Positions 1-43,632 of a stretch of DNA of 49,671 nt are shown here, piece after piece. The stretch is from Bacteroidetes bacterium ADurb.Bin234 (GTDB lineage Bacteria; Bacteroidota; Bacteroidia; Bacteroidales; WCHB1-69). The translations under genes and the position numbers were made by a program. Where the stretch lies: the NCBI GenBank assembly GCA_002069895.1, contig MWCE01000046.1:1-49671 (forward strand), given 5' to 3'. Below the pieces are notes generated by a model. It saw nothing but the letters and a program-made list of their open reading frames with translations, ran no database searches and was not told the origin of the DNA. Every line of letters begins with the position of its first letter. Position 1 is the first letter of the stretch.

Positions 1-1300
1 ACCCGACCTTTACGCTATTAAATAATTTCTTTATGTAATAATTTAGCAGCTTTTTCCATTTCTTTTCGATGGTAAGCCAACTGCCTTTCGATTTTAATAG
101 GATCATAAATACTTACTAAATTAGGATTATAAGGTTTCTTTTCTTTAAGCATATTCCAAATTATAACAAGGATTTTCCTTCCTATTGCAACTATTGCTTT
201 TTTATTCGACTTACGCATTGCCAATCGGTGATATTTTTCCATAAAGTATGATCCTTTTGTTCTTGATGCTCCCCAAGCTACCTGTATTAATATTGCTCGC
301 AGATATTTATTCCCTTTGGTAATAGCTTTGCTTTTAAATTTTCCGGCACTTTCATCGTTTCTTGGACGCAATCCCGCCCATCCGGTTAACTTTCCGCTAT
401 TTTCAAAAACACTCATATCTGCTCCGGTTTCGGCTATTAAGCAAATAGCTGATATTTTACTAACCCCAGGTAGAGTTTGAAGCAAAAGCATTTCATCTTT
501 ATAATGCTTATTACAAATGCGTTCCATCTCTTTAATGCATTCTAAGGTTTGTCTTTCAAGAATGTCATAAATCTCTTTTTCCCATTTCAAAGCTTTACGA
601 TGATGATCCATTATATACCCCGTCAAGGCTTCCCGTAATTTACCACTTTGCTTGTTTTTAGTGTTGCCATATACTAGTTTCACTAAATTATCAGGATTAG
701 TTTCTCCTTTTATTAATGCTTCTATTACGATAATCACACTCTTATTGGTTAATTTACTCACACAACTACTAATACGTATATTTGCCATAACCATGATTCT
801 ATCCATTTTTGTAAGTAATTTACACTTATCCTGTTGCATCCTCATGTATTTACGACTGTAGAAACGTAATTCCTGTATGGTTGAATTTGGAATCATGCTT
901 CCTCTTATTAAGTTCTTATGTAAAAGAGTGGCTATCCATTGTGCATCTTTGATATCACTTTTTCTGCCAGGCATCTGTTTTATTAAAAATGGATTTACTA
1001 ATGTTAATTCAAAACCCATTTCCATTAAGATATTCCAAACAGGTATCCAATAAATACTTGTGCTTTCCATAGCAACTTGATTTACTCCTTCTGTCATCAA
1101 ATACTCTCCCATTTCATATATAAATCTAGTTGTGGAATCAAAAACTTTTACTTCCGATGATGTTTTTCCGTCATATATTGAACAAAAAATACTATCTTTG
1201 TGCACATCTAAACCGCATACTTTCATAATTGTAATGTATTAAAAATTAGACATAAAATAAATTAAAATTGAGACGTACCTTAATGGTTAAGCTCGCTGCA
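1..1300 (-). mobile_element. IS110-family insertion sequence (partial view; element boundaries not determinable from this window)
   Basis: Contains the IS110-type recombinase ORF at 18-1226. Only 17 nt lie beyond its stop before the window edge. The upstream boundary must lie left of ~1344, because 1344-1388 is shared with an unrelated promoter at 25716-25760. Confidence 0.45.
18..1226 (-). CDS. IS110-family transposase/recombinase (DEDD RuvC-like N-domain plus Transposase_20-type C-domain)
   Basis: 402-aa ORF. The N-terminus MKVCGLDVHKDS is typical of the family. The C-terminal half has LPGVSKISAICLIAETG (HhH-like) and RNDESAGKFKSKAITKGNKYLR (conserved Ser region). Confidence 0.9.
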   Translation of the reverse strand: MKVCGLDVHKDSIFCSIYDGKTSSEVKVFDSTTRFIYEMGEYLMTEGVNQVAMESTSIYWIPVWNILMEMGFELTLVNPFLIKQMPGRKSDIKDAQWIATLLHKNLIRGSMIPNSTIQELRFYSRKYMRMQQDKCKLLTKMDRIMVMANIRISSCVSKLTNKSVIIVIEALIKGETNPDNLVKLVYGNTKNKQSGKLREALTGYIMDHHRKALKWEKEIYDILERQTLECIKEMERICNKHYKDEMLLLQTLPGVSKISAICLIAETGADMSVFENSGKLTGWAGLRPRNDESAGKFKSKAITKGNKYLRAILIQVAWGASRTKGSYFMEKYHRLAMRKSNKKAIVAIGRKILVIIWNMLKEKKPYNPNLVSIYDPIKIERQLAYHRKEMEKAAKLLHKEII

Positions 1301-4216: not shown

Positions 4217-4406
4217 GACCACTATTGTTTGATAAGAGTTACAAAAAATTTCGCTTCGCTCAGAATGACAGTCTCAAACTTTGTATAGGGAAAAATATCC
4301 TTCGTTTATGAAATTTTTGACATCTCCTCAATTTCACGCTTTAAAAATTAATTAATAAGCCTTGTTTTGCACAGAAGGGGGACTTCCCTAAATTAAGACC
4401 TTATGC

Positions 4407-4495
4407 AATTCAAATCTCTCCTTATAAATTTGAATTTTCTAAGGTGAAAATTGGAATGCTCACGGTAGAAAATTCAAGGGAACGAATGAAAATTG
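4407..4495. repeat. 9-bp inverted repeat (4407-4415/4428-4436) followed by GAAAATTS motifs at 4432-4439 (inverted), 4446-4453, 4468-4475 and 4488-4495
   Basis: Read directly: AATTCAAAT...ATTTGAATT, and three direct GAAAATT(G/C) copies spaced 22 and 20 bp apart. Confidence 0.6.
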
Positions 4496-4559
4496 AAATA
4501 AGACGGCACAAAATAAAAATCCATACTAAGCCAAACAGAAAAGTAAATATCTTTTTTAT

Positions 4560-5066
4560 TTAAAAATATTTTTCTTTCAATTCATTAATACTCAAAACTT
4601 CAATAGAAGGAAGGTTGTTAAGTTTTTTATTGATGTTATGCCGGGCTTCTTCTTTATAGAGAAATTCATTATTAAAAATAAATAAAGACACATTGTGCAC
4701 CGTAATGCCACCGCCGAATAGTAAATTTTTAGAACATTTTATTTTATTTGTAAAATCTCCTTGTGACAAACTGTTTATTCCACGGCAATTTAACTTAAAG
4801 TCAACTAATAACATTTTAGTATTCTCTTTATCCTTCAATCCCAAAACCATATCTACGGATTTAGTCTTTTTTGTTATGTCTTTATCTTTACAGTTTTCTT
4901 TTACTTTATCCAATTTTAAACCGACCTCTTCATTAAACGGGCGGTTTATTTTAGATCGATTTTCGGGGTTGGTTTCTTCATAAATAATATTATTTATTTT
5001 TTCAACACATGTTGGATATGCTATTGAAAGTGGATGTAATCTTGTTGTTTCTTCACAATATTTCAT
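4560..5066 (-). CDS. hypothetical 168-aa protein, possible small PD-(D/E)xK nuclease; coupled to the upstream ATPase
   Basis: ATG lies 3 nt after the ATPase stop codon. Motif SVD72MVLG...MLLVD89FK91L sits in hydrophobic strand-like contexts. I recognise no family. Confidence 0.55.
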   Translation of the reverse strand: MKYCEETTRLHPLSIAYPTCVEKINNIIYEETNPENRSKINRPFNEEVGLKLDKVKENCKDKDITKKTKSVDMVLGLKDKENTKMLLVDFKLNCRGINSLSQGDFTNKIKCSKNLLFGGGITVHNVSLFIFNNEFLYKEEARHNINKKLNNLPSIEVLSINELKEKYF

Positions 5067-5069
5067 AAA

Positions 5070-6440
5070 CTATTCTTCGGTTGCTCCGTATTCATTTATT
5101 TTATCTAACGATAGATTAAAAGAATTAAATATTTGTTCTATATCCGTTTTAGTATGCCGGTATTCAAATTTATATTTATTTATTTCTTTGGCAAAATAAA
5201 AATTAAGCGAATTATTGTTTCTGCCTAACTCTTTTTTTGAAATATATTTGATTGCACTAACCATATCGGGACTATGACTTCCAATAAGAAAATTAACTTT
5301 TAGTTCTTTGTGTAACAATACTATTAATCGCGCATATTGAACAATCCATTCGGGATGCAGATGTGTTTCGGGTTCATCAATTATCAATAATGTTTTATCA
5401 TCTAAAAAACCATTATTATATAGAATCTGTAAAGCACTGAATGATTTTAAGCCTGTTGCACAATTAAATAAATCAAAAACATGTCCATCATTTCTTTTAT
5501 ATTTAAAGGTTTCACTATTGCTATCGTATGATGTTTCTCCGTCAATAATTTCTTCTTTTAACAAATCACTTATTTTATTCTTATTTTTACCTTTTTTTGG
5601 ACTATTTTCCAATAACGAATTTAAATCAACCCAATGAGGAACATCCGTGTCTTCAATATTTTCAACTCCAATAATCATTGGAGTATCTATATATGCAACT
5701 TTATTTATGGTTAAAAAATTAGATAATTTTTTAGCTGTTCTATTGGTCATCAATACACCTAACTCTTTTACATTGTAGTTTTTAACATTAATATTTTCCG
5801 TGAAATAGTTTTCTATTATATTATCTAATATCTTAATTGACCTTTCATCAATTAAAATATATGCTTTATTAAATTTATCTTTAACAATTTTTTTTATTTT
5901 ATCTAATAAAATTGATATATTAATATTTTCACTATTCTTCTCTTTATCAAATTCTTCTTTAAAAAACCTTGTGATTCTATAAAATCGTTGATGAAAGTTT
6001 TTATCATTTTCAATGTTAATAGATAATTCTTCATATTCTTTTTTTAATATATCAAATATTAATAATATTCTACTTTCTTGTTCTTTCAAATCTAAGGTAG
6101 AATTATAATTAAAAAATTGATAAAATTTATATTTTAAATCATTTCTTTCATATTTAAGTTCTTTCTTGTTTCCAGAATCAGATTTTCGGTAATATTCTAA
6201 TTCATGTACTAATTCATCCATAAAACGTCTTATTGGCCACAATTCATTAAAAATATTTTCGCCAATAATTCTATTAAAGTCAATAGATGTTTTAATTGTT
6301 CGATAAAGCAATTTTGAAATAGTACTTTTTCCACAACCATTAATTCCTGCTATCACTGTAATCCCATTTAGAATTATATCAGCTGTTTTAATAGCTCTAA
6401 AATCTTTTATTTCTATAGATAGTTTTGGAATGTTTTCCAT
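5070..6440 (-). CDS. ABC-type (AAA_15/AAA_21-like) ATPase with long helical insert between Walker A and Walker B
   Basis: Walker A GINGCGKST (nt 6321-6347). Signature-like ATGLKSFSAL. Walker B LLIIDEPETHLHPEW (nt 5352-5390). GSHSP H-loop region. Start set at MENIPKLSIEIKDFRAIK (ATG 6440), the usual N-terminus for this family; the ORF extends to 6524. Confidence 0.8.
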   Translation of the reverse strand: MENIPKLSIEIKDFRAIKTADIILNGITVIAGINGCGKSTISKLLYRTIKTSIDFNRIIGENIFNELWPIRRFMDELVHELEYYRKSDSGNKKELKYERNDLKYKFYQFFNYNSTLDLKEQESRILLIFDILKKEYEELSINIENDKNFHQRFYRITRFFKEEFDKEKNSENINISILLDKIKKIVKDKFNKAYILIDERSIKILDNIIENYFTENINVKNYNVKELGVLMTNRTAKKLSNFLTINKVAYIDTPMIIGVENIEDTDVPHWVDLNSLLENSPKKGKNKNKISDLLKEEIIDGETSYDSNSETFKYKRNDGHVFDLFNCATGLKSFSALQILYNNGFLDDKTLLIIDEPETHLHPEWIVQYARLIVLLHKELKVNFLIGSHSPDMVSAIKYISKKELGRNNNSLNFYFAKEINKYKFEYRHTKTDIEQIFNSFNLSLDKINEYGATEE

Positions 6441-6710
6441 AATACTTTGATTCTTTATTTTATAGAACAATAGTTCTTTGTCTGCAATTTTCAACTGCAA
6501 AAATATACAAAATTTATTAAACAAGATTAGTTTATGCTGTTTTTATTTCTTATATATAACTATTTGATTAAATCTTTGAATAGATTCATATATAGTAAGA
6601 TTTTTTATTATTTTTGCCATCATAAAAATATTAACAGAATAATAAACCCGAAAAAGTAGAAAAACCAAAACCTTCGGCAAAGTAATCATCGGCATAAAAA
6701 ACATATAATT

Positions 6711-7610
6711 ATGGATATAAAAGAATTACAACAATTGATAATCGACCATCAATCCGATATCGCTTTTGTTATCGGACAGGGAGTTCACAACTATCCTTAT
6801 CTTACTAAAAATCTTTCTTGGAATGAACTGCTCAAACAGTTATGGCAAGAACTTAACTTTCAAAACGCTGATCGTCTTCGGAAAGTAACAAATATGTATG
6901 ATTTCATTCATAATCCAGATCTTATCAATGATAAAAAAACCAACATCAATAAGGAGATAGCTCGTTTAATGAAAAAAAGAGAGCCAAAATTGGTTCATCA
7001 ATACATAGTGAGTAGAATAAAAAAACTCAATGCACCCATTCTTACCACCATTTTCGACGAAACACTCTCAAAAACTTTTAATTACAAACGTTTTATCTTG
7101 GACCAAAAGAGTTTTAACGCTTACTATCCTTGGACGGTTTATCATGCCGAAAGCCCTTTAAGCGATCCGCTCCAAGGATTCGGCATTTGGTATATAAACG
7201 GAATGATACACTATCCTTCAAGTCTTATTTATAGCAAGCAACAATGTTATAAATTGACTAATAGGTTTTTATCTTTAATTGATTCTTTAGATCAAGAAGA
7301 TTGTTTTAATAAACCAAATAACATTGTTTTAAATAGTTGGATTAATATACTTTTCAACAAATCTCTCTTTGTTTTCGGCATGGGTAATGAAATTCAAGAT
7401 GATTTTTTATCTTTTATTTTGTATGCCAGAGCAAGTTATTATAAATGTTTTCCTGAAAAGAAACATAAGAGTTGGTATGTTTGTCATGCTTTATCTCCTA
7501 TAGCCGAAGAAAACACTGTGCGTTCATTTAAAAAAAAGGATTTCGAAATTATTGAATTAAATAGCACTAAAGATGTGTATGAAAATTTGTGGTTGGACTT
7601 AAAGCTGTAA
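6711..7610 (+). CDS. stand-alone SIR2_2-like protein, with catalytic Asn/His positions apparently substituted
   Basis: Motif order matches ThsA-type SIR2. FVIGQGVH...LSWNELLKQL corresponds to FAGAGLS...SWAKLL. ILTTIFDETL corresponds to TTNYD. WYINGMIHYPSSLIYSKQQCY corresponds to YKMHGD...DDY. LFVFGMGNEIQDDFLSFIL corresponds to FLFVGFSFTDPNLDYIL. Confidence 0.6.
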   Translation: MDIKELQQLIIDHQSDIAFVIGQGVHNYPYLTKNLSWNELLKQLWQELNFQNADRLRKVTNMYDFIHNPDLINDKKTNINKEIARLMKKREPKLVHQYIVSRIKKLNAPILTTIFDETLSKTFNYKRFILDQKSFNAYYPWTVYHAESPLSDPLQGFGIWYINGMIHYPSSLIYSKQQCYKLTNRFLSLIDSLDQEDCFNKPNNIVLNSWINILFNKSLFVFGMGNEIQDDFLSFILYARASYYKCFPEKKHKSWYVCHALSPIAEENTVRSFKKKDFEIIELNSTKDVYENLWLDLKL

Positions 7611-29349: not shown

Positions 29350-29387
29350 TATAGCTTATGAATCACATTACGAAAATGATCAGGAAT

Positions 29388-31127
29388 ATGAAAACATATA
29401 AATTCATTGTCATTATATTCAATTTGTTGCTTTGTGCTTCTTTTACTTACGGGCAATCTCAATACGATGTTGTAGTAAGTTCGTCCTTTACACCTTCCAT
29501 TAATGACGCACAGGAAAAAATAATGAAACCGGCTTCCATTATCGACACGACCAATATCAGTCCGGAAGTTAACTACGATATTGAAGATATGGTATTCTCA
29601 TTCGAATACACCCCCCAACCCATCAAAGCACCCAAAGTAGGCAAAGACCAAATCACCCGTTTATACCGTAATTATGTTAAATTCGGTTTCGGTTATTTGG
29701 AACCATATTTGGAATTTAGCCATAGCAATTTGCGTTCAAAGAAATTGGCTTACGGAGTGAATGTGAAACATCATTCCTTTTTCGGCAAACTGAAAAGTTT
29801 CGGTCCGGCATCTTTCAGCCAATCTCAACTCGACTTATACGGTCAAATGTTTGTTAAAGACTTTATCTTAAATGCCGACGCAAACTATCATCATCATTTG
29901 GTGCATTGCTACGGATATAATAAAGATTCGTTAAAAAAGTTTTACGGCGTAAGTGATGCTGTATTCCCGAAAGCCAAAGATATTGCCCGTCAATATCATA
30001 CTGCACATGCAAATGTTAGTGCCATTAGTAATTACGGTAAACGTTCTTATAAACTTGCCCAAACCTATGCTTTAAATTACGACTTTCTGTTTGATAATTA
30101 TAAATCCTATGAACACCAACTCCAAGCCGCCACTTCACTATTTCAAAAAATCGATATCAAAAGGCTTGATTTGGCAAAAGTAGGTGGCGATTTGAATGTG
30201 AACTATTATCATAACGATTGGGCTGTTCAAAACCTGAAAAAAGACCGTTGGTTGTTTAACCTCAAACCAAACATACAATTTGCTTATCAAAACTTCTCCT
30301 TCCGATTAGGATTTGATCTTGCACTTCGATTAGAAGACAGCACAAAATTCGGCATTTATCCCGATATTGAAGCCTTATTAAACGTCGTTCCTAACATTTT
30401 AACTTTTTATGTAGGTATCGACGGAGGCATGAAACATTATTCTTATTTGGAAAGCATGCAATTAAATCCATATTTATCGGATTACATCGATTTAGGTTTT
30501 GTGAATCAACACATCCGCATTTATGCCGGAACAAAAACCAATTTATCGCACTCCTTGTTTTTCGGTGCCGGTGCTTCACTCTCGCTCAACGATGATATGC
30601 CATTTTTCTTTAACGACAGTTCAACACGTTATATACTGAAAGACACGGCCGTGAATTTATACAATACCTTTAAACTGGTCAAAAGCCAATGCATACACAC
30701 CAATGCACATCTTAATTTAACCTATAATTATAAAGACATATTTAACATTATGATTGGATTTGACTATAACCACTATACTGTCGATTCAGTCAAGAAACCA
30801 TGGTTTAAACCTTTATTTATCACATCATTGGAAGCCAATTACAATTTAAAAGATAAATTCTTATTCTCATTCGATTTTTATATTCATACCGGAGCCTATT
30901 ATCCTTCCATGAAAGCGGATGGCAGCATCAAATCCGAAGCCTTGAAATCGGTATTTGATTTCAACCTGGGTTGTGAATATCGTTGGAATAAACGTTTGTC
31001 GTTTTTCTTGGATGTAAACAACTTCGCAGCCCAACGTAATTATTTCTATTATCAATACCCTTCGGAACGAATCAACTTCTTATTGGGGGTTAAATATATC
31101 TTTGGAGGCGAAAAAATTAAAAAATAA
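29388..31127 (+). CDS. hypothetical outer-membrane beta-barrel-like protein
   Basis: Signal peptide MKTYKFIVIIFNLLLCASFTYGQ. Alternating aromatic/polar strand pattern. Starts 9-39 nt after the TPR gene. Confidence 0.55.
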   Translation: MKTYKFIVIIFNLLLCASFTYGQSQYDVVVSSSFTPSINDAQEKIMKPASIIDTTNISPEVNYDIEDMVFSFEYTPQPIKAPKVGKDQITRLYRNYVKFGFGYLEPYLEFSHSNLRSKKLAYGVNVKHHSFFGKLKSFGPASFSQSQLDLYGQMFVKDFILNADANYHHHLVHCYGYNKDSLKKFYGVSDAVFPKAKDIARQYHTAHANVSAISNYGKRSYKLAQTYALNYDFLFDNYKSYEHQLQAATSLFQKIDIKRLDLAKVGGDLNVNYYHNDWAVQNLKKDRWLFNLKPNIQFAYQNFSFRLGFDLALRLEDSTKFGIYPDIEALLNVVPNILTFYVGIDGGMKHYSYLESMQLNPYLSDYIDLGFVNQHIRIYAGTKTNLSHSLFFGAGASLSLNDDMPFFFNDSSTRYILKDTAVNLYNTFKLVKSQCIHTNAHLNLTYNYKDIFNIMIGFDYNHYTVDSVKKPWFKPLFITSLEANYNLKDKFLFSFDFYIHTGAYYPSMKADGSIKSEALKSVFDFNLGCEYRWNKRLSFFLDVNNFAAQRNYFYYQYPSERINFLLGVKYIFGGEKIKK

Positions 31128-40125: not shown

Positions 40126-43100
40126 ATGCCTAAAAACATTTTTCATATTCGATTGTTTGTGTTGTTGCCGCTATTATTGCTCCTTTCGAATAGCTGCCTT
40201 TTACATGCTCAATCATTATCCAACAGAATAAACAAAACCATCATTTTTGAATCCGATACTTTGCAATTAGATTCTTTATCGCTGGTTCCCGGCAGTTTAA
40301 AGATATCGGCTTTGGATACCGGCGATTATGAAATAGATCAAATCAATGCTTTATTGATTTTAAAAAATAAAACCTTCATAGGGAAACCTTTAAGCATTGA
40401 ATACCGGCGATTTCCCTACCGCATCAATAAAGCTTTTTCACATAAAGATACAAATGTGATAGAGAAAAATTTATATGAACCCGTTAATCCCTTGATGATT
40501 AACGATGCCGAGCCAAACGACTTCTTAAACTTATCGGATGCAAGCCTTCAAAGTTCGGGGAGCTTGTCAAGGGGAATTACTATCGGCAATAATCAAGATA
40601 TGAGTGTTCAATCCAATCTTAACTTACAATTATCGGGTAAACTGTCGGATGATGTTGATATCATCGCAAATATTACCGATCAAAACATCCCTTTTCAACC
40701 TGAAGGGAATACACGCCAAATACAAGAATTCGATAAAATATATATTCAATTAAACTATAAAGACCGTGTTTCACTGTTGGCAGGTGATATTGAAGACAAA
40801 TCGAGCGATACTTATTTTATGCAATTCACCAAAAAAGGACAAGGATTAATGGGTGATGTGTTGCTGCTTTCCGAAACCAAAAAGAAAGACACTACTGCTT
40901 ATCATATCAAAGTAAGCGGAGCTGTTGCCAAAGGTAATTTTCGCCGACAAAGTATTGTTGCCATCGAAGGAAATCAAGGACCTTATCAACTTAGCGGCGA
41001 AAATCAAGAAAACTTTATCATTATACTTTCCGGCTCGGAACGTATTTATATTGACGGTAAATTGTTAACAAGAGGTCAAGATGCCGATTACGTAATCAAC
41101 TACAATTCCGGAGAATTGACTTTCACCGCCAAACAACCCATCACCAAAGACAAACGTATCGTGGCCGAATTCGAATACTCCGATCAAAACTATGTGCGTA
41201 CCTTAGCCCATATCGGTACCGAAATCAAACAGAAGAAATGGAATTTCTCTTTTCATTTTTACAATGAACAAGACATGAAAAACCAATCCAATCAGTTAGA
41301 ATTAAACGACCAAAACATCGCTTTTCTACGTCAAATAGGAAATAATGTGGATCAAGCCTATTATCCATATATCGATAGTGTTGGATTTCAAGAGAATGAA
41401 GTGATGTACAAAAAAATCGACACCTTGGTAAACGGCATTACCTATGATTCGGTCTTCGTTTATTCCACCCATGCAGACAGTGCTTATTATCGGTTAAAAT
41501 TCACTTTGGTTGACCAAGGGAAAGGGAACTATGTGTTAACCCAATCGTCGGCTAACGGCAGGGTGTTTGCCTGGGTAGCTCCCATCAACGGAATTCCGCA
41601 AGGGAACTATGAACCGATTATCTTGCTTATCACACCCAAACGTATACAAATGTATCATTTGAATGTTAGTTATGAATTACCTAAAAACACCTTTGTTCAT
41701 TTTGAAACCGCACTCTCTAATAATGATGTAAACACTTTCTCTACCATAGGAAACTCACAAAATGTGGGTATGGCACTGCGTTTTATGTTAAAAAACACCG
41801 CTCCTTTACCTTCAAAGAAAACACTATCTGCTGAAAAGCGTTGGAAAATGCATACGGCACTACATTATGAAACCAAAAACAAATGGTTTGATTATATTGA
41901 AAATTATCGCGACGTGGAATTTGTCCGTAACTATAACCTCGCCGATTCCCTTACCCAAGCCACTGAACATTTCACGGGATTGAATCTAAGCTTCGACCAA
42001 GCCGATAAAGGACATATCGGATGGAGCAGCAATGTGTTCCTTATTCCGGCATATGCATGGCATGCCATTCAAAATCAATTTATAACAGATTTAAAACTTC
42101 GTGCTTACACCCTGCAAATCAATGCTTCCTTACTCAACAGCCAATCGCAGAAAGATAAAACCCTCTTTTTAAAACACGATGAATTATTCAGCCGGAGCTT
42201 TCGCTACTTCGAAATCGGTTTGCATGAACAAATGGAATACAATCAATTCAAACAAAACGACAGCCTTATACCATTAAGTCGAGCATTTAATGAAATAGCT
42301 GTTTTTCTTAAACAAAACGACAGCATTACACGTGATTATAATTATGTTTTGCAATACAGCAACCGTATCGACCAAGCCGTTAAAGGAAACCATTTCAGCA
42401 CATCGGCCATTGCCCACAACTTAAAAGCCGGATTCGATATGTTGAAGTTTGCCAATCATCCTCTACGTTTTACTTTGTCATATAGAAATTTACGTTATAA
42501 AGACAGTTTGGCGGCAACACAAGCCCCGGAAAACACTTTGTTGGCAAGTATCGATTATCAAGGACAAATTTGCAAAGGGGCAATCCAGTGGGGTTTATTC
42601 TACGAATTAGGTTCGGGTATGGAACAGAAAAATGCCTATACTTATATCAAAGTGGCCAATAGCCAAGGAACTTATCAATGGATTGACTATAACGGTAACG
42701 GCATAGAAGAGCTTGACGAATTTGAAGTAGCCATTTATAAAGACCAGGCAAACTATATCCGCCTTTGGCTCGTTTCCAACGAATATATCAAGACATTCAA
42801 CAATAAACTCACACAAAGTCTAGGCTTACGGCCTGCTGCCGTATGGTATAACAAAAAAGGAATAAAGAAATTCATTGCCCGCTTTGCCAATCAAACCACC
42901 TATCAAACCCAATTAAAACAAACCGCTGCCGATTTTATTTCTACCATCAATCCTTTTTATTCAAATTTAACCGATACGGCATTGGTTTCAACCGCTATGC
43001 ACTTCCGGAACGCTTTCTCCTTTAACCAAAACAGCCTGATTTGGGGTCTGGATGCTATTTACAGCCATTCAAAAAACAAATTATTAACCGTCAATGGATT

Positions 43101-43632
43101 CGAATCATCAAACCTGAATGATTGGCAATTTTCAGGACGTTGCCGCATCTTTAAAGATTTTATCTTAAAACTGAATTATTACCATAAACTAAACACCAAA
43201 AACTCCGAATATTTTAATCTTAAAAACTATCGTATACTCAACAACAGCATGGAACCCATACTCACTTATCAATTCGACAACCAATTAACTGCAAGCATTT
43301 TATATGCTTACATACAAAAAATTAACACCACAGGCGAAGAACGAAGCTATACGCACAAACTAACAAGCGAAATCAATTACCGCATGCCAAAACGAGGCTC
43401 TTTACTCACACAAATAAGTTATTATCATATTCAGTTTAAAGGCAAAACATCCGCTCCCTGCGCTTATGAAATGCTGGAAGCCCTACAACCCGGACACAAT
43501 GGCGTGTTTACAATTGCCTATCAAACAACCTTACTTAAAAATCTACAAATGAATTTAATGTATGAAGGACGAATTTCAACCGGCGTGGCGATGATACATA
43601 CCGGCAGTGTGGAAATAAGAGCATATTTTTAG
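40126..43632 (+). CDS. large conserved-hypothetical secreted/outer-membrane protein
   Basis: 1168 aa with a signal peptide. Beta-rich C-terminal half ending VEIRAYF (OMP-like terminal Phe). I recognise no family. Confidence 0.55.
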   Translation: MPKNIFHIRLFVLLPLLLLLSNSCLLHAQSLSNRINKTIIFESDTLQLDSLSLVPGSLKISALDTGDYEIDQINALLILKNKTFIGKPLSIEYRRFPYRINKAFSHKDTNVIEKNLYEPVNPLMINDAEPNDFLNLSDASLQSSGSLSRGITIGNNQDMSVQSNLNLQLSGKLSDDVDIIANITDQNIPFQPEGNTRQIQEFDKIYIQLNYKDRVSLLAGDIEDKSSDTYFMQFTKKGQGLMGDVLLLSETKKKDTTAYHIKVSGAVAKGNFRRQSIVAIEGNQGPYQLSGENQENFIIILSGSERIYIDGKLLTRGQDADYVINYNSGELTFTAKQPITKDKRIVAEFEYSDQNYVRTLAHIGTEIKQKKWNFSFHFYNEQDMKNQSNQLELNDQNIAFLRQIGNNVDQAYYPYIDSVGFQENEVMYKKIDTLVNGITYDSVFVYSTHADSAYYRLKFTLVDQGKGNYVLTQSSANGRVFAWVAPINGIPQGNYEPIILLITPKRIQMYHLNVSYELPKNTFVHFETALSNNDVNTFSTIGNSQNVGMALRFMLKNTAPLPSKKTLSAEKRWKMHTALHYETKNKWFDYIENYRDVEFVRNYNLADSLTQATEHFTGLNLSFDQADKGHIGWSSNVFLIPAYAWHAIQNQFITDLKLRAYTLQINASLLNSQSQKDKTLFLKHDELFSRSFRYFEIGLHEQMEYNQFKQNDSLIPLSRAFNEIAVFLKQNDSITRDYNYVLQYSNRIDQAVKGNHFSTSAIAHNLKAGFDMLKFANHPLRFTLSYRNLRYKDSLAATQAPENTLLASIDYQGQICKGAIQWGLFYELGSGMEQKNAYTYIKVANSQGTYQWIDYNGNGIEELDEFEVAIYKDQANYIRLWLVSNEYIKTFNNKLTQSLGLRPAAVWYNKKGIKKFIARFANQTTYQTQLKQTAADFISTINPFYSNLTDTALVSTAMHFRNAFSFNQNSLIWGLDAIYSHSKNKLLTVNGFESSNLNDWQFSGRCRIFKDFILKLNYYHKLNTKNSEYFNLKNYRILNNSMEPILTYQFDNQLTASILYAYIQKINTTGEERSYTHKLTSEINYRMPKRGSLLTQISYYHIQFKGKTSAPCAYEMLEALQPGHNGVFTIAYQTTLLKNLQMNLMYEGRISTGVAMIHTGSVEIRAYF

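What the first reader, a model, noticed from the sequence alone, without database searches (positions are those of the whole stretch)
6711..7610. Stand-alone SIR2-like protein in which the canonical catalytic Asn and His appear replaced (TTNYD -> TTIFD; xHG -> ING)
The protein aligns motif-by-motif with the SIR2 domain of Thoeris ThsA as I remember it. FVIGQGVH..LSWNELL corresponds to FAGAGLS..SWAKLL. ILTT-I114-FDETL corresponds to WTT-N-YDRL. WYI-N163-GMIHYPSSLIYSKQQCY corresponds to YKM-H-GDVEHPSEAVLIKDDY. LFVFGMGNEIQDDFLSFIL corresponds to FLFVGFSFTDPNLDYIL. In ThsA-type and other defence SIR2 NADases, the Asn and His at these positions are required for NAD+ cleavage. Here they are Ile (nt 7050-7052) and Asn (nt 7197-7199), although a His sits four residues later (H167). 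At 299 aa the protein has no sensor domain (no SLOG, HerA, pAgo or DSR extensions). It could be an inactive regulatory or decoy subunit, an enzyme with a shifted active site, or a SIR2-fold protein with a different chemistry.
Basis: partly seen in the sequence, partly recalled or inferred. Interest (0 to 1): 0.65.

Follow-up and report, generated by a model that had tools for sequence, protein, structure and literature searches.

The report
Solo SIR2-like protein missing catalytic residues
A 299-residue bacterial relative of the NAD-cleaving SIR2 immune enzymes (human FAM118B, bacterial ThsA and KomC) has lost both residues those enzymes need for catalysis, yet is still kept by natural selection, so it is probably a non-catalytic "pseudoenzyme" of a large, uncharacterised family.

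Summary
ORF 6711-7610 (+) encodes a 299-aa single-domain SIR2-fold protein (AF2 pLDDT 84; Foldseek: KomC E 2e-8, SPARSA SIR2, FAM118B). It has no Pfam, NCBIfam or PADLOC hit of its own. It belongs to a family of at least 298 cluster representatives, mostly ~300-aa genes without a conserved neighbour, mostly in Bacteroidota. The family profile matches Pfam SIR2_2 and solved FAM118B (E 3e-9). In that register I114 lies on FAM118B N163 (= ThsA N112) and N163 on H206 (= ThsA H152).

The two replacements differ in kind. Asn at the His site is a family trait: N 148, H 49, Q 3 of 200, with about 25 switches on an NJ tree. SirTM sirtuins likewise carry Gln there and stay active. Asn to Ile at 114 is unique: 199 of 200 relatives keep Asn.

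The window protein is the fastest-evolving member and keeps only 20 of 28 near-invariant residues. It is nonetheless under purifying selection (dN/dS 0.18 overall, 0.025 for codons 1-174; three haplotypes all intact with I114/N163).

The neighbouring ATPase and 168-aa gene form their own module, found elsewhere without any SIR2-like gene. Best reading: a catalytically disabled but maintained SIR2 pseudoenzyme. This is a new variant of a known kind, of moderate interest.

The parts
6711..7610 (+). 299-aa stand-alone SIR2-fold (SIR2_2 / FAM118-like) protein, a degenerate member of its family
   Evidence: ORF and translation; family of 72 clusters at 90% identity and 298 representatives at 50%; AF2 and Foldseek; profile links to SIR2_2 and FAM118B
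6774..6782 (+). G22-Q23-G24, the dinucleotide-binding loop after strand 1. The family has GNG (N in 188 of 200); Gln is unique to this protein
7050..7052 (+). Codon ATT = Ile114, at the position of the catalytic Asn (FAM118B N163, ThsA N112). Relatives have Asn in 199 of 200; the only other Ile is the 93%-identical P0001
   Evidence: mutant data in PMC12700824 and bioRxiv 10.1101/2024.09.18.613514
7197..7199 (+). Codon AAC = Asn163, at the position of the catalytic His (FAM118B H206, ThsA H152, KomC H146). This is a family-wide polymorphism: N 148, H 49, Q 3
7191..7193 (+). Codon TAT = Tyr161. The column is His in 126 of 200 relatives and in FAM118B (H204), so the window protein has no His on this strand at all
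7209..7211 (+). It sits in a variable column and is not conserved
6525..6710 (.). 186-nt, 22% GC divergent intergenic region between the ATPase and the SIR2-like gene. It holds a Bacteroidota-type -7 box (TATTTTTG, TAnnTTTG pattern) at 6609-6616 on the + strand; this was read by eye and not tested
   Evidence: the promoter reading is inference

Best explanation
The gene encodes a fast-evolved, catalytically disabled member (a pseudoenzyme) of a large, uncharacterised family. Members are ~300-aa SIR2_2 proteins related to FAM118B/ThsA/KomC and have no conserved gene partner.

Canonical members keep an invariant Rossmann NAD site (GNG ... TTN-F-D/E ... [H/N/Q]-G ... G-L-x-L-E-x-x-E). They most likely bind NAD+ and cleave or transfer from it. 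The Asn would be the indispensable residue. The His position tolerates Asn or Gln, as in SirTM sirtuins.

In the window's lineage the Asn became Ile by a single A-to-T change from an AAT Asn codon (AAT to ATT). Seven further near-invariant residues were replaced during a burst of accelerated evolution. NAD+ glycosidic-bond cleavage is therefore most likely lost. After that burst the protein came back under purifying selection, so it does something. The most likely role is non-catalytic: ligand (NAD/ADP-ribose/nucleotide) binding, or assembly, using the preserved fold, GxG loop, TT-x-F-D segment and hydrophobic core.

Shown: the fold, the homology, the residue equivalences, the uniqueness of N114I, the rate acceleration and the purifying selection.
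Inferred: loss of NADase activity, and the nature of the retained function.
For: - Fold and homology.
- Residue mapping to FAM118B N163/H206. Both residues are required for NAD processing (PMC12700824; bioRxiv 10.1101/2024.09.18.613514, which equates them with ThsA N112/H152). KomC H146A abolishes defence and almost all in vitro activity (PMC13454610).
- N114 is Asn in 199 of 200 relatives and changes once on the tree, in this lineage. Position 163 changes about 25 times.
- SirTM precedent: His is replaced by Gln137 while N118A is dead (PMC4518038).
- The window protein keeps 20 of 28 columns that are at least 90% conserved. That is the lowest of 182 sequences (others: median 28, minimum 21).
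- Relative-rate test: 51 against 22 unique changes, median chi-square 12. It has the longest terminal branch and the longest root-to-tip path.
- Purifying selection. Against a 91%-identical strain, with its first 49 codons taken from the X15 haplotype: 21 synonymous and 18 non-synonymous changes, dN/dS 0.18, P about 8e-7 against neutrality; codons 1-174 give 9:1, dN/dS 0.025. The third haplotype (X15) gives 15:6 in codons 1-183. All three are intact and keep Q23, I114 and N163.
- The exact protein recurs on 11 contigs from several wastewater and digester studies.
Against: - No biochemical data exist for any member of this family. Even the canonical members might not be NADases, in which case 'pseudoenzyme' would be the wrong frame.
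- The dN/dS estimates rest on two related haplotypes and 39 plus 21 substitutions.
- The C-terminal 125 codons are only moderately constrained (dN/dS 0.275).
- No transcript evidence was found.
- No partner or paralogue that could use a non-catalytic subunit is visible in the 49.7-kb window.
- The NJ tree used for the rate and parsimony counts is crude, and the window sequence's placement on it is unreliable.
Confidence: 0.5

Rival explanations
1. The protein is still an NAD-processing enzyme with a re-wired active site. Other residues (for example D116, Y161, H167 or a bound water) would replace Asn114 and the missing His. The chemistry might be changed, for example to ADP-ribosyl transfer or to another nucleotide substrate.
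For: Purifying selection is strongest over the active-site half (codons 1-174, dN/dS 0.025). The GxG loop, TT-x-F-D and G164 are retained. SirTM shows that SIR2 enzymes can work without the His.
Against: The Asn is the one residue that no other family member has given up (199 of 200). Its mutation inactivates FAM118B, ThsA and SirTM. Ile cannot hold the catalytic water or the ribose hydroxyls. H167 and Y161 sit in variable columns. N23, E230, R234 and W235 are lost at the same time.
Confidence: 0.15
2. The gene is a decaying remnant. It lost function recently and is drifting towards pseudogenisation, and the apparent constraint is a sampling effect or hitch-hiking.
For: It has the longest branch in the family and has lost eight near-invariant residues. 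It lies in a low-GC accessory island. The C-terminal half has dN/dS 0.275. No RNA evidence was found.
Against: Three haplotypes at up to 9% nucleotide divergence are all full-length, with no stops or frameshifts. Synonymous changes clearly dominate (30:7 in the N-terminal two thirds when the two comparisons are combined; they share several substitutions). Neutral drift would predict about 80% non-synonymous changes (P about 8e-7).
Confidence: 0.15
3. It is the regulatory or sensor subunit of a three-gene system together with the divergently transcribed AAA_15/ABC-type ATPase (5070-6524) and the 168-aa PD-(D/E)xK-like protein (4560-5066).
For: All three genes sit together in one low-GC island and share a 186-nt divergent intergenic region. 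The arrangement is identical on all longer contigs of this species. The ATPase hits defence ATPase models (HEC-02A 1.5e-27, NsnB, PtuA, GajA).
Against: None of 86 loci carrying family members encodes a relative of the ATPase or of the 168-aa protein. The ATPase plus small-protein pair occurs in three other contexts without a SIR2-like gene. The genes differ in composition (GC3 16%, 24% and 29%). All contigs with the trio come from one species, so the adjacency counts as a single observation.
Confidence: 0.15

Closest known systems
FAM118B / FAM118A (SIRanc; vertebrate SIR2_2 'sirim' proteins; PDB 9r0p, 9r3e)
   Same: This is the best sequence match among solved structures to the family profile (E 3e-9). 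It is likewise a ~300-residue stand-alone SIR2_2 domain without a zinc module. It shares the IGxGI, LTTNFD and HIHG motifs in the same order. It is weakly active alone and depends on assembly.
   Different: FAM118B keeps N163 and H206, and both are required for activity (PMC12700824). The window protein has Ile and Asn at those positions. Identity is low. Filament formation and a paralogue partnership are unknown for the bacterial family.
KomC, the SIR2 NADase of the Kongming system (PDB 8zsf, 8zsi, 9xvc)
   Same: It is the top structural match to the AF2 model (E 1.9e-8, TM 0.57/0.64). It is of similar size (264 aa) and has a single SIR2 domain.
   Different: KomC works with KomA and KomB and is switched on by dITP, and H146 is essential (PMC13454610). 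No KomA- or KomB-like gene lies next to the window gene, and both catalytic residues are absent.
Thoeris ThsA SIR2 domain (PDB 7uxt, 8wc0)
   Same: It has the same SIR2_2 subfamily motifs.
   Different: ThsA carries a SLOG or Macro sensor domain and pairs with a TIR protein, ThsB. N112 and H152 are required. None of these features is present here.
SirTM (class M sirtuins, protein ADP-ribosyltransferases)
   Same: The catalytic His is naturally replaced by an amide residue (Gln137) while NAD+ chemistry is kept. This is the best precedent for the family's Asn or Gln at position 163 (PMC4518038).
   Different: SirTM belongs to a different SIR2 subfamily, is linked in an operon to a macrodomain and GcvH-L, and still needs Asn118, which is exactly the residue the window protein lacks.
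PADLOC candidate PDC-S25 and the SIR2 models of Dsr1 / ThsA / Lamassu LmuA
   Same: These are the only defence models that any family member touches (best 3e-7 for PDC-S25, 1e-7 for ThsA).
   Different: The hits are weak and sporadic (at most 9 of 37 members). The window protein hits none of them. The architectures of Dsr1 and LmuA are much larger.

Membership tests
SIR2 superfamily, SIR2_2 / 'sirim' branch (Pfam PF13289) | Rossmann-type large subdomain plus a helical small subdomain inserted after strand 1, with no zinc module | tested here: met
   The AF2 model (pLDDT 84.4) has strand 17-21, a helical insert at about 23-105, and strands 110-112, 126-129, 143-146, 159-161, 218-222, 254-259 and 279-283. 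Foldseek matches KomC, SPARSA SIR2, FAM118B, Avs5 SIR2 and sirtuins.
SIR2 superfamily, SIR2_2 / 'sirim' branch (Pfam PF13289) | Significant match to the family's sequence profile | tested here: inconclusive
   The window protein alone has no Pfam hit even at E 10. Membership follows by transitivity: 12 of 42 and 37 of 37 relatives hit PF13289, best 6.2e-10, and hhalign to those relatives gives E 5e-113.
SIR2 superfamily, SIR2_2 / 'sirim' branch (Pfam PF13289) | Catalytic Asn after strand 2 (ThsA N112, FAM118B N163, SirTM N118) | tested here: not met
   Ile114 occupies the position; relatives have Asn in 199 of 200.
SIR2 superfamily, SIR2_2 / 'sirim' branch (Pfam PF13289) | Catalytic His in the 'HG' motif (ThsA H152, FAM118B H206, KomC H146) | tested here: not met
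   Asn163 occupies the position. This is shared by 74% of the family; His is present in 49 of 200.
Thoeris (ThsA + ThsB) | SIR2 fused to a SLOG or Macro sensor domain, with a neighbouring TIR-domain ThsB | tested here: not met
   The 299-aa protein has a single domain. The neighbours are an AAA_15 ATPase, a 168-aa protein without hits and a ZIP transporter, with no TIR domain.
SIR2-HerA | Adjacent HerA/FtsK-type hexameric ATPase | tested here: not met
   The adjacent ATPase matches AAA_15, AAA_21 and SMC_N (ABC/OLD-type), not HerA. It is not conserved next to family members.
Kongming (KomA-KomB-KomC) | SIR2 protein encoded with a HAM1-like KomB and a deaminase KomA | tested here: not met
   No such domains occur in the flanking genes. 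No neighbour is conserved across 84 loci.
DSR1/DSR2, SPARSA, Avs5 (large SIR2 fusion proteins) | SIR2 fused to, or paired with, large sensor modules (over 1000 aa; APAZ/pAgo; STAND) | tested here: not met
   The protein is 299 aa and relatives are typically ~300 aa, with a minority of 350-500-aa forms. There is no pAgo or STAND neighbour.
FAM118-type filament-forming sirtuins | Head-to-tail filament formation needed for NAD processing, and a partnership between paralogues | not testable with these tools
   Only monomer prediction was available. No paralogue lies within the window.

The most novel reading that the evidence does not exclude
Two linked readings are not excluded.
1. The whole bacterial family is a His-independent class of immune-type SIR2 enzymes. 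Asn or Gln can stand in for the 'catalytic' His, which would parallel SirTM but within the FAM118/ThsA branch.
2. The window protein is a natural SIR2 pseudoenzyme. It lost the indispensable Asn and was retained as a non-catalytic NAD/ADP-ribose sensor or assembly subunit, possibly co-opted by the adjacent ATPase plus PD-(D/E)xK-like module.
Probability: 0.2. Interest if true: 0.7.

Novelty: new variant of a known kind. Interest (0 to 1): 0.45.

Why it matters
SIR2 NADases are central effectors of bacterial antiphage immunity, and FAM118B now links them to human innate immunity. All characterised members need the Asn/His pair.

This work points to a large, unstudied bacterial sister family of FAM118-like proteins without conserved gene partners. 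In that family the His is dispensable in evolution and the Asn is not. It also identifies a single lineage that gave up the Asn and is nevertheless still maintained.

That makes a natural experiment for two questions: which residues SIR2_2 enzymes really need, and whether SIR2 folds can be recycled as non-catalytic sensors or scaffolds, as is proposed for many TIR domains. If the protein is simply inactive and idle, the finding is only a curiosity of accessory-gene decay.

Tried and rejected
- Direct profile searches with the protein alone (Pfam, NCBIfam, PADLOC, PDB sequences) gave nothing or spurious kelch-design hits.
- The profile of the close subfamily (A1) found nothing in PDB sequences. 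Only the His-type subfamily profile (A2) reached FAM118B, KomC and ThsA.
- Conserved partner genes: all-against-all clustering of 1,074 ORFs from 86 loci found none shared by more than 8 loci, and those reflect within-genus synteny. PADLOC and Pfam scans of 133 adjacent ORFs gave heterogeneous, mostly housekeeping neighbours with a few defence genes (HamB, mad2/3, PDC-M23B/M62B).
- ATPase or 168-aa relatives near family members: none found.
- SIR2-like genes near relatives of the 168-aa protein: none found.
- A compensating His elsewhere in Asn-type members: none emerges.
- A phage origin: only 3 hits in 2.9 million viral contigs and no convincing BFVD match.
- Expression: no RNA run holds the gene.
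- A second family member in the window: none.
- Rfam over the whole window: no match.
- The fold of the 168-aa protein: no significant structural match.
- An 'empty site' strain lacking the island: not found. The apparent joints rest on 21-48 matching letters on the shorter side and were disregarded.

Full report
**What is there**

Codon 114 is ATT (7050-7052), codon 163 is AAC (7197-7199) and codon 23 is CAG.

The gene lies in a low-GC stretch: 28-29% GC at 4-8 kb against about 35% for the whole window. By gene, the SIR2-like ORF is 31% GC, the ATPase 24% and the 168-aa gene 28%. On one side is a polysaccharide-export-type gene; on the other are a ZIP transporter and the ftsZ/dcw cluster. An IS110 transposase sits at the window's start. 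Names attached to relatives in the window's FtsZ cluster, and the runs that hold the sequence, place it in an uncultured Bacteroidales bacterium from wastewater and anaerobic-digester communities.

**Is it SIR2-like?**

Taken alone, the protein matches nothing in Pfam, NCBIfam, PADLOC or PDB sequences, even at E 10. It does have many relatives:
- 72 clusters in the 5.8-billion-protein set;
- 298 representatives at 50% identity with E <= 1e-3, of which 185 have E <= 1e-10.

Most relatives are ~300 aa. Most come from Bacteroidota, with some from Proteobacteria and other phyla.

The links to SIR2 are as follows:
- 12 of 42 close relatives, and 37 of 37 members of the subfamily that carries His at position 163, hit Pfam SIR2_2 (best E 6.2e-10).
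- A profile of that His-type subfamily hits solved human FAM118B at E 3e-9, KomC at 1.4e-3 and ThsA at 0.004-0.012.
- The window's own alignment matches that profile over its full length (hhalign probability 100%, E 5e-113).
- An AF2 model built on the family alignment is confident (pLDDT 84.4, pTM 0.87). Its best PDB matches are KomC (E 1.9e-8, TM 0.57/0.64), the SPARSA SIR2 subunit, FAM118B, Avs5 SIR2 and classical sirtuins.

The SIR2 fold and SIR2_2 ancestry are therefore established.

**Residue equivalences**

In the printed alignment, the family's LTT-N-FD lies on FAM118B's LTT-N-FD, and the family's W-H-I-H-G lies on L-H-I-H-G. Counting along the deposited chain gives a constant offset of 20. 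These positions are therefore FAM118B N163 and H206.

Both residues are needed for FAM118B NAD processing (PMC12700824). Another group equates them explicitly with ThsA N112 and H152 (bioRxiv 10.1101/2024.09.18.613514). KomC H146A is likewise inactive (PMC13454610).

The window protein has Ile114 and Asn163 at these two positions. The same register comes out of hhalign directly against the FAM118B segment.

**The two substitutions differ in kind**

Among 200 relatives of at least 230 aa:
- Position 163 is Asn in 148, His in 49 and Gln in 3.
- Position 161, two residues earlier on the same strand, is His in 126 and Tyr in 63.
- The combinations (161, 163) are H/N 82, Y/N 61 and H/H 41.

On a neighbour-joining tree, position 163 needs about 25 changes, whereas position 114 needs one, on the window's branch. 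No compensating His appears elsewhere in the Asn-type members.

An amide at the 'catalytic His' position is therefore a recurrent, tolerated state in this family. There is a precedent in class-M sirtuins, where Gln137 replaces the His, the enzyme is a robust ADP-ribosyltransferase, and N118A is dead (PMC4518038).

By contrast, Asn114 is present in 199 of 200 relatives. The only other Ile is P0001, a 93%-identical fragment from the same lineage. N114I is thus the exceptional event and the stronger argument for loss of NAD+ cleavage.

**A degenerate but maintained copy**

The window protein keeps only 20 of the 28 columns that are at least 90% conserved. This is the lowest value of all full-length members (others: median 28, minimum 21). 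The changes are N23Q (the GNG loop), E61N, N114I, Y179C, L226N, E230D, R234S and W235F.

It is closest to the Tyr/Asn subfamily (38% identity), whose members share 61% identity with one another on average. It is also about 10 points further from the other subfamilies than they are.

Relative-rate triplets give 51 unique changes on its branch against 22 for its relatives (median chi-square 12, p about 5e-4). It has the longest terminal branch and the longest root-to-tip distance of 182 sequences.

Yet it is not drifting.
- Against a strain with 91% nucleotide identity (L087, extended at the 5' end with a contig from run X15), there are 21 synonymous and 18 non-synonymous differences. This gives dN/dS 0.18 and P about 8e-7 against neutrality.
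- Codons 1-174, which hold all the active-site motifs, show 9 synonymous changes to 1 non-synonymous (dN/dS 0.025). Codons 175-299 give 0.275.
- The flanking ZIP gene gives 0.095.
- A third haplotype shows 15 synonymous and 6 non-synonymous changes in codons 1-183. Five of the six fall in the low-confidence helical segment at residues 59-75.
- All three haplotypes are uninterrupted and keep Q23, I114 and N163.
- The exact protein recurs on 11 contigs from several studies.

The loss of Asn therefore predates the split of these strains, and selection has preserved the altered protein since then.

**Context**

The divergently transcribed neighbour (5070-6524, -) is an AAA_15/AAA_21/SMC_N-type ATPase. 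Its best PADLOC hits are to defence ATPases: HEC-02A 1.5e-27, NsnB, GajA, PtuA and Old. Four nucleotides downstream of it lies a 168-aa ORF (4560-5066, -) with no database hits.

That small protein has only six homologue clusters. In three other contexts, the ~160-aa gene directly follows an AAA_15 ATPase and no SIR2-like gene is nearby. It has invariant D72 and D89-F-K91. Its model gives only weak resemblances to PD-(D/E)xK nucleases: FokI cleavage domain, MUS81 and Shedu, all with E > 0.02. It therefore looks like the nuclease of a self-contained ATPase-nuclease pair; this is an inference.

Conversely, none of 86 loci carrying SIR2-like family members encodes a relative of either gene. No neighbour cluster is shared by more than 8 of 84 loci, and the shared ones are within-genus synteny. 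Adjacent genes are mostly housekeeping, with a sprinkling of defence genes.

The family thus has no conserved gene partner. Its adjacency to the ATPase pair here is one observation in one species, with differing codon composition (GC3 16%, 24% and 29%). The family is nearly absent from viral contigs (3 hits).

**Mechanism**

Canonical members conserve the dinucleotide-binding GNG loop, TTN-F-(D/E), (H/N/Q)-G, and a G-L-x-L-E-x-x-E-x-F-L-R-W-L-L-I-E-R segment. I infer from their FAM118B/ThsA/KomC homology that they bind NAD+ and break or transfer from the nicotinamide-ribose bond. The Asn would be essential and the His position replaceable. Their biological role is probably conflict-related, like the rest of the SIR2_2 branch, but this was not shown here: the defence-island signal is weak.

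For the window protein, an Ile side chain cannot position the ribose hydroxyls or the catalytic water. Together with the missing His and the altered GNG loop, this means NAD+ cleavage is most likely lost. The strong constraint on the N-terminal two thirds argues for a retained function of the fold, such as ligand binding or assembly, both common themes in filament-forming SIR2 effectors. I put this pseudoenzyme reading at about 0.5. The three rivals each stand at about 0.15: a re-wired active enzyme, a decaying remnant, and a subunit of a trio with the ATPase pair.

**Comparison and novelty**

The protein is a SIR2-fold, SIR2_2-derived protein. It fails the two catalytic-residue criteria and has none of the partner or fusion features that define Thoeris, SIR2-HerA, Kongming, DSR, SPARSA or Avs5. 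Its family's nearest characterised relative is FAM118B. The nearest PADLOC models (PDC-S25, ThsA, Dsr1) are touched only weakly by some relatives and not at all by the window protein.

I rate it a new variant of a known kind, with moderate interest (0.45). The window-specific story, an inactive but maintained SIR2, is plausible but biochemically untested. The family-level observation, a His-dispensable and Asn-indispensable sister family of FAM118-like proteins with hundreds of members, may be the more useful lead.

Noticed in passing
window 4560-6524 (-): An AAA_15/ABC-type ATPase (484 aa by the longest ORF; called as 476 or 456 aa elsewhere) is followed 4 nt later by a 168-aa protein with invariant D72 and D89-F-K91, a PD-(D/E)xK-like motif. 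The pair recurs in other Bacteroidota without any SIR2-like gene (L104, L106, L107). It is a candidate two-gene ATPase-nuclease defence module. The ATPase hits PADLOC HEC-02A at 1.5e-27. The small protein has only 6 homologue clusters and no significant fold match.
   Followed up: partly
window 4217-7610: A low-GC accessory island (ATPase GC 24%, GC3 16%; 168-aa gene 28%; SIR2-like gene 31%) is inserted between a Polysacc_synt gene and the ZIP/ftsZ-dcw region (36-42% GC). Between strains, dS of the SIR2-like gene (0.14-0.15) is about a third of that of the adjacent ZIP gene (0.48). This suggests recent exchange of the island between strains, or a compositional constraint.
   Followed up: partly
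window 18-1226 (-): An IS110-family transposase (DEDD_Tnp_IS110 plus Transposase_20) lies at the edge of the window, about 3 kb from the island.
   Followed up: no
L005 4291-7269; L073, L074, L077 (related loci): The long His-type family members (422-440 aa, with a ~120-residue extra helical insert after the GNG loop) lie 15-139 nt downstream of a ~530-aa lipoprotein-like gene in gut and rumen Bacteroidales. This may be a subfamily-specific partner.
   Followed up: no
L002 6001-11834; L003, L004, L016: In Allomuricauda, a canonical 298-aa family member overlaps a 346-aa ORF of unknown function by 38 nt. A second, unrelated SIR2_2 protein of 554-1287 aa follows. This may be a multi-SIR2 locus.
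   Followed up: no
window 7176-7215: Contigs from other organisms in the same metagenomes (runs X8, X11, X15) match only this 40-nt stretch, which encodes GFGIWYINGM. Their flanks encode the canonical family motifs (...LELPTD / YRSIRLGLSH). Canonical family members therefore coexist in these communities and share near-identical DNA at the motif.
   Followed up: no
window 6609-6616 (+): TATTTTTG fits the Bacteroidota -7 promoter pattern TAnnTTTG and lies about 95 nt upstream of the SIR2-like start codon, in a 22% GC divergent intergenic region. It was read by eye only.
   Followed up: no
window 29358-31127 (+) and 40126-43632 (+): Two large ORFs (589 aa and 1168 aa) have no Pfam match at E 1e-5.
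   Followed up: no
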